In this document: piece after piece, positions 4,190 to 21,413 of the stretch
Layout: each line of letters starts with the position of its first letter
Numbering within the stretch: the stretch's first letter is position 1
NCBI RefSeq assembly: GCF_006345805.1
Contig: NC_043011.1
Coordinates: forward strand, 30,454,464 to 30,518,463
From: Octopus sinensis
Taxonomy: Eukaryota
Length of the DNA: 64,000 bases
Direction of reading: 5' to 3'
Program-made: the position numbers and the translations under genes
Notes under the pieces: generated by a model
Told to the model about the DNA's origin: nothing
What the model saw: the letters and a program-made list of their open reading frames with translations, nothing else
Databases searched by the model: none

Positions 4190-4760
4190 AAACGAGAGAG
4201 AGAAACGAATATAATAGAAGTGTACTAAGGTAAAACAATAGAAGATATTTTTCGGAGAGAGGAGGTGGAGTAAATAAGAAGAAGAAGAAGAAGAAGAAAG
4301 ATAAGAATACGAAGAAGAAAAGAAGAAGAAGAAGAGAAGAAGAAGAAAAAAGGAGAAGAAGAAGACAAAGGAAAAGAAAAGGAAGACGAAGAAACGAAAG
4401 GAAGAAATGAAAAACAAAAAAAAGAAGAAAATGAGAAAAAGAAGAAGAAGAAAGAAGAAGAAGAAGAAGAAACAGAAGGAATAGAAAATGAAAGAAAAGA
4501 AAGAAGAAAAGAAGAAAAGAAAAGAAGAAAATGAAGAAAAAGAGAAAAAGAAAAGGAAGAAAATGAAGAAAAAGAAGAAGAAGAAGAAGAAGAAGAAGAA
4601 GAAAGGAAGGAAGAAGAAGAGGAAGAAGAAGAACACAACAATAAGGAGGAGGAGGAGGAGAAAAAGAAGAGGGAGAAATAGAGAAATGTTGAAGAAGAAA
4701 TGAGACAAGGAGGCTGGAGAGAGGAACACAGGGCAAGAAACCAACAGATATTAAGAGAGA
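4190..4760. repeat. Polypurine (GAA/GGA)n low-complexity tract
   Basis: Almost pure A/G on the + strand. Confidence 0.95.
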
Positions 4761-5384: not shown

Positions 5385-5935
5385 TTTCATTTTTGCTATA
5401 GGCGAAAGAGCTGAAATTTAGTGGGAGGAGGCTAGTCGATTATATAGACCCCTAGAGAGGATGAAAACAAAGTCGACCTCGGCGGAATTTGAACTTAGAA
5501 CGTAAAGACGGACGAAGTACCTATTTCTTTACTACCCACAAGGGGCTAAACACTGAGGGGACAAACAAGGACAGACAAACGGATTAAGTCGATTACATCG
5601 ACTCCAGTGCGTAACTGGTGCTTAATTTATCGACCCCGAAAGGATGAAAGGCAAAGTCGACCTCGGCGGAATTTGAACTCACAACGTAACGGCATACGAA
5701 ATACCTATTTCTTTACTACCCACAAGGGGCTAAACACAGAGAGAACAAACAAGGACAGACACACGGATTTAATCGATTATATCGACCCCAGTGCGTAACT
5801 GGTACTTATTTAATCGACCCCGAAAGGATGAAAGGCAAAGTCGACCTCGGCGGAATTTGAACTCAGAACGTAACGGCAGACGAAATACCGCTAAGCATTG
5901 GGACCGGCATGGTAACGATTCTGCTAACTTATGGG
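5385..5935 (-). mobile_element. SINE family A tandem multimer (3 body units)
   Basis: Repeated body aaagtcgacctcggcggaatttgaact, with the tail cctatttctttactacccacaaggggctaaacac present twice. Confidence 0.9.
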
Positions 5936-6314: not shown

Positions 6315-6930
6315 AGTCTCACCCAACATAAAGAAAATCGGAGGAAAAACGCTTGCTATGGACACAGCTGATAGCTGGATGCGTTCTACAAATAATAGCA
6401 GACATCATAACTCTACAAATCTGCAATGCTCTAGAACTGGACGAGAGCGTACGGAGCAATTTTGTCACTCTACGTGCATCTTGGATGACCCCTGATGATG
6501 GCACCCCCGTGCCTGTGCAGGTAATCTCGAACCGGTAATACCCTTCTGTAGCACTGCCAGGCCAAAGTTTTCTTGAAATTATCCATGGGGTCTGACCGGA
6601 AATTCTTCCGGAGCCGACCAGCCAGTTAATTTTCATTAATACACAAAGTTTGCCATAGAACGTCGTCACTTTTGTCACAACTAATTTTATATGGACCATG
6701 CTACCTACCGCAGAGTCCGACTAGTAGAAGGCTACGATCGCTTGACGACATTCTAGATGTCATTCACCTTTTCATGGGTTTTGCTCGACCTAAAAAGGCT
6801 ACGATCGCTTGACGACATTCTGGATGTCATTCACCTTTTCATGGGTTTTGCTCGACCTAAAAAGGCAGGCTGTAGAAAAGCGCATCCCACAAACGGCGAG
6901 CAGTTCTTATTCAAACACACGAACAACTAT
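6315..6930 (-). mobile_element. Decayed Tx1/L1-like LINE ORF2 C-terminal (zf-RVT region) fragment
   Basis: Minus-strand translation gives PMDNF..TLAWQCYRRVLPVRDYLHRHG...HPRC...YALVQF, a degenerate form of the CCHC region after the RT; stops and frameshifts present. Confidence 0.7.
6728..6866. repeat. 67-bp tandem duplication bounded by aaggc microhomology
   Basis: 6728-6794 and 6795-6861 differ at one base. Confidence 0.95.
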
Positions 6931-11714: not shown

Positions 11715-12080
11715 AAAAGCTTGGTTGTGTTAGTAATTGTTTGTCACAAAATACTACAATACATATATACACATTCTTTGATAACAAGAACATGTTAAGA
11801 ACAGTTTACAAGGGAAAATCTTGGGAAAATATAAAAAAGTTTAACAAGTTCATCAAAATATTGGGCACAAAAGCTTGGTTGTGCCAGGTACTGGTTGTCA
11901 CAAAATATTACAATATGCATATACATTCCTTGATATTAAGAACATGTTGAGAACAGCTTACAAGGGAAAATCTTGGGAAAATATAAAAAAGTTTAACAAG
12001 TTCATTAAAATATTGAGCACAAAAGATTACAATATATATATATACATTCTCAAGAAAATGTTAAAGATAGTTTCCAGAAG
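11715..12080. repeat. ~153-bp tandem repeat, about 2.4 copies
   Basis: aaaagcttggttgtg at 11715 and 11869; caagggaaaatcttgggaaaatataaaaaagtttaacaag is repeated. Confidence 0.9.
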
Positions 12081-12217: not shown

Positions 12218-13441
12218 GACAACATGGTGAGTAAAAGCAACAGTGCAGAGGAAGCTATGGATGATGCAGGAGAATTTGTGGAGTGATAGATGCGATGAAA
12301 TCCAAGAAGCTTCAAATGCTAACAATTTCAAACTTTTTACTCTCTCTTGAAAAAAGGTTTTGGGCCAGTTTCACCAAAGGTTGCGCCACTTCGGAGCAAG
12401 GATGACACAGAATTATTAACAAATCCTAAAGATATTGTTGGGAGATGGAGAGTTGCTCAATAGATCAACCGAGGATCTCTCTTTTCTTGATAATATACCC
12501 GAGAGACCAATAAAACATCTTATAGCAGAAACACCAAACCTGGCTGAAATAAAAGCAGCAATCAGGAAATTGAACAATCGAAAGGCCCCTGGTATGGATG
12601 GACTAGGTGCAGAGATATATAAACATGGTGGGGATCATCTTTGTGTAATGTTGACGGATGTGATTCAGAGGATTTGGTAAAGTGAAGAGGTTACTCTGGA
12701 TTGGCGTAATGCAACTATGGAGATACTATATAAATCTAAAGGTGGAAAGGATGTCTGTGATAATTATCACGGCTTCTGTCAGTTAGCTGTTGCTGGAAAG
12801 GTCAACTGTAGGGTAATGCTGGATAGATTGCTTCTGCACATTGCTGATGAGGTTCTACCTGAATCGCAATGTGGGTTTAGGGATAGTAGGAGTACTATGG
12901 ATATGATATTTTCGGCTAGACAGTTGCAAGAAAAGTGCATCGAACAGGATATGAACTTATACCAGGTTTTCATTGACCTAACAATAGCGTTTGCATTCTA
13001 TCTATCCCTTACAGAGATTATATGCAATATCTCCCATGATGAAAAAGTTGTCCTTTTGGGTGATTTTAATGCTCGCGTTGGTGCAGATTGGGAGACTTGG
13101 GGGTGTCCTAGGAAATCATAAGGTTGGGAATTCCAACAGTAATGGTTTGCTACTGTTACAAACGTGCGTAGAAATGGATTTGTGTGTCATGAATACAATA
13201 TTTCGACTAAAGAATAAGTATAAAACGACATGGATGCACCTTTGTTCTGAGAAATGGCATCTTATAGATTACATCCTCACCAGGAAACGAGATACTAGGG
13301 ACTTAGCTATTGTACGAGTGATGCATGGTGCAGAGTGCTGGACTGATCATAGGCTTTTGCGTGCCAAGGTGAATTTTGTTGTCAAGTCTAAGGTAAGAGC
13401 AAATAATGTCAAATTACCTACACGGATGAATGTGAATAAAC
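12218..13441 (+). pseudogene. RTE-clade LINE remnant, rearranged: linker plus RT N-half (12218-12992) followed by APE endonuclease C-half (12993-13441)
   Basis: KAPGMDG..AEIYK, LPESQCGFR, DMIFSARQLQEKCIEQ, FIDLTIAF, then LLGDFNARVG, NSNGLLLL, WHLIDYIL, TDHRLL; stops and frameshifts present. Confidence 0.92.
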
Positions 13442-13534
13442 ATACAAACTTACATACACACACACATACATACATACATACATACATACATACATACATA
13501 CATACATACATACATACATACATACATACATACA

Positions 13535-13561
<27 letters not shown>

Positions 13562-13566
<5 letters not shown>

Positions 13567-13730
13567 CGTCGGGATTCTACTAATTTTCCCCGCTACGAAA
13601 TTCATTCACAAGCCATTGGTCAGCCCGGGATTATCGTAGAAGTCATTTGACCGAGGTGCTACTCGGTAGAACTGAACTCGAAACTACACGGTTGTAAAGC
13701 AAGTGTTTTAACTATACAACCGTGATTGCA
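13562..13730 (-). mobile_element. SINE family B 5' portion, diverged
   Basis: aaattcattcacaagccattggtcagcccggg...gtagaagtcatttgaccgaggtgc. Confidence 0.7.
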
Positions 13731-15438: not shown

Positions 15439-16368
15439 CATCGTCTTAGCTCACAGTTGTGGTAGGACTATAGTATTAGTATTAGTGTAGTTGTTGTTGT
15501 TATCAATGTAGCCATGATTATATAAGCGAAACTGCAAATGATGAAAAATACAATTTAAAATTTAGTCTGAATGACATTAAATTGGTGAGTGAAGAATGTG
15601 ATGTAAACTTTTGATTGGTCCTATTAGTTTACACCTAGTGGATCAATTAAGTGACTAATTCACTGTTGTGATTTGCTTGGTAGGAAACACTGTTTTGGGT
15701 CTCGAGATTTCAAACACGAACTATATTTCATCCACATAAAAATATTCTCCGTTGATTTGTCATCTGAGAAACGCATCTCTGTCAGAAAAATTGAAGTAAT
15801 GGAATGAATAAAACTAATTAAAAATAAAAAAGTAGCAAGTTATAAAACTATGCAATTAGAGAAACAGGTATGAAATTACTAAATAATTATAGCAAATATT
15901 CAAAATGGATCTCTTCTTCCTGCGAGTAAACTCACAGCTGGCGATAATATTTTTCATTGCTTGTTCCGGTATTTCCAAAATAATAACTTCAAATTTCCGT
16001 ATTATTTTTTTTTAGTTCAATATTACGAGTTAATCAATATTATGAGGTTTTGGTACCGTACATGATATTTAGTGTGCACTAAATGGATCTGTGTTCAGGT
16101 TATTAATGGCTCTGCGGCTTCAACCTTTTATCGTTTTTATAATACAATTTCAGCATCTCTGAAATTTGTTGTAGGATAGAAATGACAAATTTAGCGCCCA
16201 GATACAACAGAGAGAAACTAAAATAATTCAATATTCAATTCTCTGTCTCTCCGTCTCCCTTCCCCTCTCTTTCTCTTTCTTTCTCTCTCTCTCTCTCACT
16301 CTCTTTTTCTCTCTATCTCTCTCCCACACACACACAGACATATGTATATGTATATATATATATGTATG

Positions 16369-16402
<34 letters not shown>

Positions 16403-16450
16403 TGTATGTATGTATGTATGTATGTATGTATGTGTATATATATATATATA

Positions 16451-17413
16451 ATTACATTATATAATTATTTTTTTGCCACATACTGAACTTAGTAGAAATA
16501 GCAGCCAAAAAAAATTTTTTTAGCCGTTTCTACTACTTAAAGAAAATTTCTCTCAGATAATGTTTACTCCAGACAGCTCACGAAGGTTTGGAGGTAAATA
16601 CAGAAAAATATCACAAGTACATAGATCGTTTGAGTACGTTAACGTTTCAAGATTAGCCAAGTAAAATCATATAATGTAAAAATTTTTTTTGGCTGCTATT
16701 TCTACTAAGTTCAGTATGTGGCAAAGTAATTTATTTTATTTTACTAAGCCCTAATTATATAATGTAATATTTTGAATTCGCCTTAAATGGTCCTTTTACA
16801 TACTGAACACTTGGTGAAATTGATTAATTAATTTTACCCTCAATTGTTGATATTATAATTCATTTCTCTCTGTCATACTGCCTCGGTTCTCGCGGTTAAA
16901 ATATAATGTTTGCTAGATAGACCACGTGGGTGGCAAAGGAGTGCAGAGATTTACGCCTGCGCATTTTGAATTTGTTAGCACTGTCAGTCGGAGCTGGTTC
17001 ATTTGAAGCGACAAGTTCGCAGATAGGTAAGGTTCCTTCTTTTTAGTGTTTCCAAATCCAAATTAAGAAATTTTGAGCTGACGAAAGAAATGCTGATTTT
17101 ACTTGGCTAATCTTGAAACGTTAACGTACTCAAACGATCTATGTACTTGTGATATTTTTCTGTATTTACCTCCAAACCTTCGTGAGCTGTCTGGAGTAAA
17201 CATTATCTGAGAGAAATTTTCTTTAAGTAGTAGAAACGGCTAAAAAAATTTTTTTTGGCTGCTATTTCTACTAAGTTCAGTATGTGGCAAAGTAATTTAT
17301 TTTATTTTACTAAGCCCTAATTATATAATGTAATATTTTGAATTCGCCTTAAATGGTCCTTTTACATACTGAACACTTGGTGAAATTGATTAATTAATTT
17401 TACCCTCAATTGT

Positions 17414-17419
<6 letters not shown>
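16451..17419 (+). mobile_element. Young non-coding Penelope-like/retrozyme-like element: inverted 5' arm plus terminally redundant ~566-nt unit
   Basis: 16679-16853 is directly repeated at 17245-17419 (offset 566); 16472-16669 is the reverse complement of ~17094-17291; flanked by (TA)n; contains an HHR. Confidence 0.85.
17072..17134 (+). ncRNA. Type I hammerhead ribozyme, canonical core
   Basis: TTTGAG-CTGACGA-AAGA(22 nt)TCTT-GAAA-CGTTAACG-TA-CTCAAA: 6-bp stem I, 4-bp stem II, palindromic stem III; predicted cleavage after GUA at 17128. Confidence 0.88.
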
Positions 17420-17451
<32 letters not shown>

Positions 17452-17454
<3 letters not shown>

Positions 17455-17652
17455 GGAGTAAGCACATAAATGTGAAACAAGGTGGAAAAAAGAGTACTCA
17501 AATACCAGAGGTAGAGTAATATGGTCTATTTTATAGCAGCAGAAATATAACAAAAGCTGTTACTCAGAGTTTCACGTTCCCGTCCGTCCGACGGACGGGA
17601 ACGTAAAACTCGAAAAACAGCTTTTGTTATATTTCTGCTGCTTTTAAATAAA

Positions 17653-17655
<3 letters not shown>
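17452..17655. mobile_element. Fold-back Penelope-like fragment with HHR-like halves meeting at the palindrome centre (~17589)
   Basis: gcagcagaaatataacaaaagctgt...cgttcccgtccgtc | gacggacgggaacg...acagcttttgttatatttctgctgc; minus arm reads gacgg-acg ggaa cgt-GAAA-ctc t gag-TA-acag; related fragment at 30905-30985. Confidence 0.65.
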
Positions 17656-17701
<46 letters not shown>

Positions 17702-20792: not shown

Positions 20793-21413
20793 CTTTTCTT
20801 TTCTGCTCTAGGCACAAGGCCCAAAATTAGGGGGAGAGGGCCTGTCGATTAGATCGACCCTAGTACGCAACTAGTATTTAATTCATCGAACCCGAAAGGA
20901 TAAAAGGCAAAGTCGACCTCGGCGGAATTTGAATTCAGAACGTAAAGGCAGAAGAAATACCACTAAGCATTTCGCCCTCGAGCTAACATTTCTTATTTCT
21001 TTACTGCCCACACGTAGCTACATACAGAGAGGACAAACCAGGACAGACAAACGAATTAAGTCGATTATATCTACCCCAGTGCGTAACTGGTACTTATTTA
21101 ATCGACCCCGAAAAGATGAAAGGCAAAGTCGACCTCGGCGAAATTTGAACTCAGAACGTAGCGGCAGACGAAATACCTATTTCTTTACTACCCACAAGGG
21201 GCTAAACACAGAGGGCACAAACAAGGACAGATAAACGGATTAAGTCGATTCCATCGATCCCAGTGCGTAACTGATACTTATTTAATTGACCCCGAAAGAA
21301 TGAAAGGCAAAGTCGACCTCGGCCAAATTTGAACTGAGAAAGTAGCGGCAGACGAAATAACGCTAAGCTCTTCGCTCGGCCTGCTAACGTTTCTGCCAGC
21401 TCGCCGCCTTCTT
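20793..21413 (-). mobile_element. SINE family A trimer bounded by a single TSD
   Basis: TSD tgaatag(c/t)agatatt at 20778-20792 and 21414-21428; three body units and two different tail types. Confidence 0.9.

What the first reader, a model, noticed from the sequence alone, without database searches (positions are those of the whole stretch)
16451..17419. Young, protein-free ~566-nt retrozyme-like unit with an intact hammerhead ribozyme
Seen: a 175-bp direct repeat at 566-bp offset (about 1.3 units) and a ~200-bp inverted copy joined at the 5' side through a short templated tataatgtaa linker. Also seen: (TA)n flanks, no ORF, repeats that look identical, and a canonical type I HHR at 17072-17134 with self-complementary stem III ACGUUAACGU. 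Known: partial-tandem plus inverted ends and minimal type I HHRs typify Penelope-like elements (PLEs), and non-LTR retrozymes yield circular RNAs. Inference: a recently active non-autonomous element copied from a circular or multimeric ~566-nt RNA, possibly undescribed in this lineage. A donor-like AG|GTAAGG (~17025) lies just upstream of the HHR.
Basis: partly seen in the sequence, partly recalled or inferred. Interest (0 to 1): 0.75.

Follow-up and report, generated by a model that had tools for sequence, protein, structure and literature searches.

The report
Penelope-hitchhiking ribozyme repeat, paired ends
This is one of hundreds of copies of a 560-base, protein-free jumping repeat that carries a predicted self-cutting RNA and lands in TA repeats, and its back-to-back copies almost always end at two different fixed points, which likely records a borrowed Penelope-type enzyme starting to copy the RNA from both cut DNA strands.

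Summary
In detail: a 176-nt perfect direct repeat at 566-nt offset, a 203-nt inverted arm, TA flanks, no ORF, and one complete type I hammerhead fold (predicted cut 17128/17129). The hammerhead is neither minimal nor textbook, and Rfam misses it.

The unit is a family: 362 exact ribozyme 30-mers, 730 exact end-plus-TA junctions, arrays of at least 15 units, and subfamilies down to about 67% identity that keep the ribozyme and a covarying fold.

3' ends fall at two sites about 85-95 nt apart. Of 109 head-to-head insertions, 99 pair one end of each kind, 1 pairs like ends and 9 are unclassifiable. A young protein-coding Neptune Penelope-like element in the same genome does the same (15 of 15 resolved; 34-nt tail). 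The two arms share private variants, and 69 of 99 junctions are not palindromic.

Best reading: a non-autonomous Penelope-mobilised retrozyme, primed once from each target strand, on an uncut multimer or a circle. Cleavage, circles, expression and the partner enzyme are not shown.

The class is published. The scan noted the same two-site rule earlier in other families of this and other genomes.

The parts
16341..16450 (.). Left flank: (TATG)n grading into (TA)n; target microsatellite
16451..16669 (-). Inverted arm, u241-481 with a ~20-nt deletion in the S1 hairpin; its 3' end is the tail-less site S1; carries only the 3' half of the ribozyme
16670..16677 (+). 8-nt filler between the arms, identical to u471-478 (the S1 end sequence); possibly templated
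16678..17419 (+). Direct arm, 1.31 units (u391-566 + u1-566); its 3' end is the tailed site S2
16854..17419 (+). Full 566-nt unit; predicted highly self-paired RNA (z -5.14 linear, -5.75 circular) with compensatory changes across subfamilies
17025..17032 (+). Splice-donor-like AG|GTAAGG; a GGTA-type motif is kept in 17 of 18 aligned A/B units and 4 of 4 C units; splicing not shown
17072..17134 (+). Type I hammerhead fold; core CUGACGA 17078-17084, stem II 17085-17114, GAAA 17115-17118, palindrome 17119-17126, predicted cut after 17128; likely active as a dimer
17217..17227 (+). Acceptor-like TTTTCTTTAAG; a pyrimidine run plus AG is kept in 18 of 18 aligned A/B units; use not shown
17286..17334 (+). 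Site S1: bulged hairpin GG(C)..GCC + CU followed by an AU-rich run where short ends join (TA)n; inferred first priming site
17379..17419 (+). Site S2: hairpin GGUG..UACC + CU followed by an AU-rich run where tailed ends join (TA)n; inferred second priming site
17420..17452 (.). Right flank (TA)n

Best explanation
The element is a non-coding ~560-nt hammerhead-bearing repeat whose back-to-back insertions in (TA)n carry one arm ending at site S1 and the other at site S2, and it is likely a non-autonomous retrozyme copied in trans by a Penelope-like (probably Neptune-clade) reverse transcriptase-endonuclease. Shown: family, target, two fixed ends, their pairing, a shared source for both arms, copying across the unit junction and the predicted cut, covarying RNA fold. 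Inferred steps: (1) tandem arrays are transcribed; (2) the ribozyme, probably as a dimer through its palindromic helix III, cuts slowly and the monomer may be ligated to a circle; (3) a protein dimer binds the two-hairpin S1/S2 domain and cuts both strands of a TA tract; (4) one DNA end starts reverse transcription at S1, the other at S2, on an uncut multimer or a circle; (5) the two cDNAs stop at unrelated points and are joined 5' to 5' by short homologies or fillers. A single productive priming gives the one-armed copies.
For: Two ends only, paired: 99 S1+S2, 1 S2+S2, 0 S1+S1, 9 with an unclassifiable end among 109 inverted insertions; 32 of 36 in the sample chosen by the ribozyme alone, the other 4 unclassifiable. 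Same rule in an intact, 99-100% young Neptune element of this genome with 4,428-nt tandem units: 15 of 15 resolved inverted insertions end at 4394 and 4428. Arms of one insertion differ by 1.1% on average against 3.9% between insertions; 63 of 69 closer than the median. 69 of 99 junctions have 5' ends over 60 nt apart and in 25 of 99 neither arm can contain the other. 189 of 278 arms pass the predicted cut, 45 at least twice; 179 tandem junctions in 180 insertion records. Arrays carry fixed private variants and mostly singleton internal variants (123 of 131 in A, 65 of 80 in B). 11 of 112 predicted pairs change on both sides; 47 such cells against 17.7 in shuffles. The helix III palindrome persists in different letters: CGUUAACG, CGUUGACG, CGUACG, CGCG. 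In vitro, a Penelope-like protein cuts and extends both strands, starts at two internal sites that bound the tail, and is predicted to be a dimer (PMC11167929).
Against: No autonomous element sharing the termini was found: local-alignment z of -0.5 to 2.1 against the NepY end and 0 to 3.0 against the NepX end for subfamilies A-C; only a short ACCCT-like motif before S2 is shared. PMC11167929 saw no difference in start site between the two strands in vitro. 14 of 99 junctions are near-palindromic (5.5 expected, p about 0.001), so fold-back contributes to some. Circle versus linear multimer is not resolved; 8 (A) and 15 (B) within-array variants are shared by several units; 5' ends show no excess at whole-unit lengths (6 against 5.8 expected). 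The ribozyme lacks G10.1-C11.1, and 8 of 9 Xenopus dimers tested did not cleave in vitro (preprint). Covariation counts sequences, not events, and the structure was predicted from the same alignment.
Confidence: 0.72

Rival explanations
1. Fold-back (self-priming): one cDNA is made, folds back on itself and is recopied to give the inverted arm, which is then joined to the target at the other fixed site (the model favoured for rotifer Penelopes in PMC3846280).
For: Excess of near-palindromic junctions: 8 of 99 within 5 nt (1.9 expected), 14 of 99 within 15 nt. It would also explain shared private variants.
Against: 69 of 99 junctions differ by over 60 nt; in 25 of 99 neither arm can contain the other; arm lengths are uncorrelated (rho 0.14, p 0.16); the S1 arm is the longer one in 37 of 99.
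Confidence: 0.12
2. The template is only an uncut linear multimeric transcript; the ribozyme is a retained, rarely active part and no circle is made. (A variant of step 2 of the best explanation, compatible with the rest of it.)
For: Most arms pass the cut (46 of 52 reaching it in the sample not chosen by the ribozyme). Ribozyme mutants did not affect insertion in vitro for the Anolis element. The window copy has one complete ribozyme only.
Against: Ribozyme and palindrome are kept with compensatory changes over ~33% divergence; arrays reach at least 15 units and are homogeneous; a weak excess of stops lies at cut+0..11 (6 of 52 against 60 of 1519, p 0.02, chosen after a lead; not seen in all arms, p 0.18).
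Confidence: 0.35
3. The unit is the terminal repeat of an unrecognised full-length Penelope-like family (for example Hydra clade), and the copies are its 5'-truncated ends plus local tandem amplification.
For: Anatomy matches a pLTR (donor-like site, ribozyme, two ends). My partner search was limited: 40 GIY-YIG loci fetched, four protein queries, no Hydra query.
Against: S2 runs straight into u1 in 179 junctions, in subfamilies A, B and C alike; none of 194 locus records has a Penelope ORF joined to the unit (16 have one nearby, apart from it or across a TA run). The published octopus Hydra ribozyme differs in sequence.
Confidence: 0.1
4. A DNA-level foldback or satellite repeat amplified by recombination in TA tracts, with a chance ribozyme-like motif.
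For: Rfam finds no hammerhead.
Against: Fixed 3' ends with scattered 5' ends, dispersal over many contigs, strand-specific RNA-type covariation including G-U pairs, and the same end rule in a coding retroelement.
Confidence: 0.02

Closest known systems
Metazoan non-LTR retrozymes (Cervera and de la Pena 2020, PMC7229834; seen: parts 2-3 of 6). Li, Clavereau, Pollet 2026 preprint 10.64898/2026.07.22.740005 (seen: parts 1-3 of 5; supplements closed)
   Same: Non-coding tandem units, one type I hammerhead per unit, low GC, highly self-paired predicted RNA, co-occurrence with Penelope-like elements, palindromic helix III suited to dimers.
   Different: Unit 557-582 nt, above the 170-400 nt with shown circles but within the preprint's 51-972 bp; circles and cleavage untested here; no pLTR homologue found; the parts I read do not describe head-to-head arms or two fixed ends.
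Endonuclease-bearing Penelope-like elements with inverted pLTR and tail (Craig et al. 2021, PMC8557442, seen: abstract, passages, section 11, supplement rows; Arkhipova et al. 2013, PMC3846280, seen: passages)
   Same: [quoted passage not shown]
   Different: No ORF; tail about 85-95 nt instead of 30-40; the one-sided tail is here a near-strict rule (99 of 100 classifiable).
PAc, Poseidon element of Anolis (Frangieh et al. 2024, PMC11167929; seen: parts 1-2 of 4)
   Same: Two internal start sites that bound the tail, AT-rich target, copying of uncut RNA.
   Different: No strand difference in start site reported in vitro; inverted products not analysed in the parts read.
L1 twin priming (recalled, not read here)
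   Same: Two target ends prime on RNA and give a head-to-head inversion.
   Different: Here both start sites are fixed and structured, and the two arms overlap in template coordinates.
Penelope minimal hammerheads (Cervera and de la Pena 2014, PMC4209133; seen: parts 1-2 of 4)
   Same: Palindromic helix III, extra nucleotide after A9, long helix II, low expected monomer activity.
   Different: Six-pair helix I and an 8-nt palindrome; no G10.1-C11.1; lies in a non-coding unit.

Membership tests
Type I hammerhead ribozyme | Core CUGANGA / GAAA / NUH with helices I-III in type I order | tested here: met
   kept in subfamilies A, B, C
Type I hammerhead ribozyme | G10.1-C11.1 pair and match to an Rfam hammerhead model | tested here: not met
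   variable base of helix II; no Rfam hit. Lowers 'canonical', not 'hammerhead'
Type I hammerhead ribozyme | Self-cleavage | not testable with these tools
   bench test
Metazoan non-LTR retrozyme | Tandem units of a few hundred bases, each with a type I hammerhead | tested here: met
   arrays of 2 to at least 15 units; the window copy itself has 1.3 units and one full ribozyme
Metazoan non-LTR retrozyme | No protein; no LTR pair flanking a core | tested here: met
Metazoan non-LTR retrozyme | Highly self-paired monomer RNA | tested here: met
   predicted only: z -5.1 to -5.75; covariation
Metazoan non-LTR retrozyme | Accumulates as circular RNA | not testable with these tools
   only assembled contigs of runs guessed to be RNA were served
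Penelope-mobilised non-autonomous element | Partial tandem, inverted truncated arm, one-sided tail, microsatellite target | tested here: met
Penelope-mobilised non-autonomous element | Sequence similarity to the terminus of an autonomous family | tested here: inconclusive
   none with NepX, NepY or other ends seen; search not exhaustive, Hydra and Naiad not queried
Autonomous Penelope-like element | RT plus GIY-YIG ORF | tested here: not met

The most novel reading that the evidence does not exclude
Penelope-type insertion is an obligatorily asymmetric double priming: an enzyme dimer seats on a two-hairpin RNA platform and gives one start site to each strand of a TA break, and this retrozyme is a small RNA circle that has evolved its own such platform, without sequence homology to its helper, and is rolled by both enzymes at once.
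Probability: 0.35. Interest if true: 0.75.

Novelty: new variant of a known kind. Interest (0 to 1): 0.5.

Why it matters
How Penelope-like elements form their inverted ends and one-sided tail is an open question named in PMC8557442 and only partly answered in PMC11167929. Here a short non-coding family with hundreds of young copies, and an intact coding Neptune element in the same genome, give a counted rule (one end of each kind) and two defined RNA hairpins that can be mutated in the existing in vitro assay. It also ties retrozymes to Penelope enzymes by insertion footprint rather than by sequence likeness. The element itself is one more retrozyme family, and the scan has noted the rule in other families, so it is a general property, not special to this locus.

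Tried and rejected
Rfam: no hammerhead hit. No tRNA in the window; the bacterial promoter scan is uninformative here.

Apparent partners that were coincidental neighbours: L071 (subfamily B copy in the TA tract beside a truncated Neptune); L080 (downstream ORFs look like an APE-RT LINE).

Whole-unit-length stops as a circle signature: no excess (6 of 124 S1 arms against 5.8; 11 of 143 S2 arms against 6.6). 5' ends at the cut itself: 4 of 278 within 3 nt, 3.5 expected.

RNA: no RNA holder listed on record; only contigs of runs guessed to be RNA. They cover the unit and show no joint skipping donor to acceptor; this is no evidence for or against expression or splicing. Contigs of organisms A-D (coded) hold family pieces, and loose ends into TA occur at both S1 and S2 in X16/X17.

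Family D (L059) looked related but is not alignable above noise (z -0.6 to 2.2).

A Hydra-clade search was left out because I had no tool-supplied query; that partner remains open.

Literature searches found no paper counting paired ends or reporting octopus retrozymes; PMC13282606 has no 'hammerhead' or 'ribozyme' in its main text (passages). Subscription papers, Repbase/Dfam and preprint supplements were not visible, so the family may be catalogued under another name.

Full report
Observation. The element spans 16451-17419 between (TATG)n/(TA)n and (TA)n tracts. With u1 = 16854, it reads: an inverted arm (u481 to u241, with a ~20-nt deletion), an 8-nt filler, then u391-566 and a full unit u1-566. 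The direct repeat is 176 nt and identical. No frame over 49 aa lies inside. One complete type I hammerhead fold lies at 17072-17134 with a predicted cut after 17128. Rfam does not detect it; it has a long interrupted helix II without G10.1-C11.1 and an 8-nt palindrome in helix III whose dimer helix is predicted at -11.6 kcal/mol.

Family. The genome (2.72 Gb; octopus-like by my recall, not by a call) gave 1,624 candidates, of which 40 were scored, mostly at 92-100% identity. An exact 30-nt ribozyme pattern occurs 362 times; 15 hits carry the window's own palindrome variant. An exact S2-end-plus-TA pattern occurs 730 times (subfamilies A and B); reversed controls gave 0. Subfamily B (558 nt, ~75% identical to A) has copies 98-99% alike and arrays of at least 15 units. 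Subfamily C (~582 nt, ~67% identical in the alignable part) is older. All keep the ribozyme core with different stems and palindromes.

RNA fold. The unit folds far better than shuffles (z -5.14, 0 of 100; circular z -5.75 for A and -5.51 for B on 25 shuffles). On 18 aligned units (16 representatives of 131 full units at 94% clustering, plus references), 11 of 112 pairs change on both sides, 47 cells against 17.7 in shuffles. Relatedness and fitting inflate this. The fold has a rod centred on the ribozyme and a second domain with two hairpins, each ending in CC-CU before an AU-rich run.

Two ends, always paired. I parsed 180 insertion records from three samples: chosen by the ribozyme pattern (first-listed hits on contigs C1-C4), by the S2 end (C1-C2), and top DNA hits. 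Dropped: 6 cut by the fetched edge, 1 complex, 3 duplicates, and records under 80% identity; undetected segmental duplicates are possible. 3' ends fall at S1 (u~471-483) or S2 (u566), just after the two hairpins. Of 109 head-to-head insertions, 99 pair S1 with S2, 1 pairs S2 with S2 (L088, whose second end is not in TA), none pairs S1 with S1, and 9 have an unclassifiable end. By sample: 32 of 36, 37 of 39, 30 of 34. One-armed copies in the ribozyme-chosen sample use S1 14 times, S2 6 times, other once, so both sites work alone. The window copy fits the rule.

Same rule in a coding element. The genome holds young GIY-YIG elements. NepY has 4,428-nt tandem units, an upstream ORF region and a 784-aa RT/GIY-YIG frame with a Neptune-type CxxxxCxxC linker (clade label from PMC8557442 passages and recall), and copies 99-100% alike. 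Of 20 stretches fetched, 18 are inverted; in the 15 with both outer ends in view, one arm ends at 4394 and the other at 4426-4428. This sample was chosen by the S2 end. Its termini do not align with the unit above noise, so it is a candidate helper, not a shown one.

How the arms arise. Arms of one insertion are more alike than arms of different insertions (1.1% against 3.9%; 63 of 69), so they share a source; gene conversion or one active source at a time could also do this. Simple fold-back fails for most: 69 of 99 junctions have 5' ends over 60 nt apart and in 25 neither arm can contain the other, though 14 are near-palindromic, more than chance. Arms pass the predicted cut 255 times (189 of 278 arms); a small excess of stops just 3' of the cut appears in one sample (6 of 52, p 0.02) and in one-armed copies (5 of 70, p 0.008) but not overall (p 0.18), and TA-like microhomology there could explain it. 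The template is therefore mostly uncut or re-ligated RNA. Arrays are homogeneous with fixed private variants, which fits rolling-circle copying but also homogeneous multimers.

Mechanism. Shown: target, two ends, pairing, common source, read-through. Inferred: transcription, slow dimer-dependent cleavage and ligation, a Penelope protein dimer that primes S1 from one DNA end and S2 from the other, and end-joining of the two cDNAs. This extends PMC11167929 (two start sites bounding the tail, both strands extended, predicted dimer), which however saw no strand difference. I put the overall reading at 0.72 and a circular template at about even odds. With a single full ribozyme, the window copy is probably a product, not a source of circles.

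Splice-like sites. Donor-like and acceptor-like motifs flank the ribozyme and are conserved, recalling the intron of Penelope ends (PMC4209133). I saw no spliced genomic copy in the parsed records and no such joint in contigs.

Standing. The class is published, as is the one-sided tail in qualitative form. My searches found no count of paired ends in print. I recorded the pairing idea and counted it before opening the scan's notes, which show the same rule in other families; these are unchecked notes and are not counted as support. Verdict: real, a new variant of a known kind, interest 0.5.

Noticed in passing
L317 4299-4330 of the NepY unit; L046, L047, L050, L059 (NepX ends): Two young Neptune families carry hammerheads with the U3-A8 core in place of C3-G8, 65-100 nt before their 3' ends. 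The variant is known from Schistosoma (PMC4209133).
   Followed up: partly
L053 1174-4874; L317: NepX and NepY have a long upstream frame overlapping the RT/GIY-YIG frame, not the single ORF usual for Penelope-like elements; frameshift or intron not resolved.
   Followed up: no
L059 6400-7500 (also L055): Family D: another tandem-plus-inverted hammerhead repeat in TA, palindrome CAAUUG, not alignable to A-C.
   Followed up: partly
L056 6520 and 6916; L059 850; L034; L131; L134 7575: Several further unrelated hammerhead repeats with palindromic helix III beside TA tracts.
   Followed up: no
window 17453-17653: A ~200-bp very abundant repeat with inverted arms 17519-17561 / 17616-17658 shares the right TA tract.
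   Followed up: no
family A, u199-216: 11 of 93 5' ends in the ribozyme-chosen sample cluster just upstream of the ribozyme; sampling bias and microhomology not excluded.
   Followed up: no
window 5458-5889 and 20994-21359; 11715-12025; 6728-6866: Partial tandem repeats of 184, 152 and 67 bp; the 184-bp one also recurs in fetched loci.
   Followed up: no
window 12988-13650 +: A 220-aa frame that resembles a LINE endonuclease fragment (by eye).
   Followed up: no
L040, L041: GIY-YIG hits unlike the Penelope ones, resembling host SLX1-type exons (recalled).
   Followed up: no
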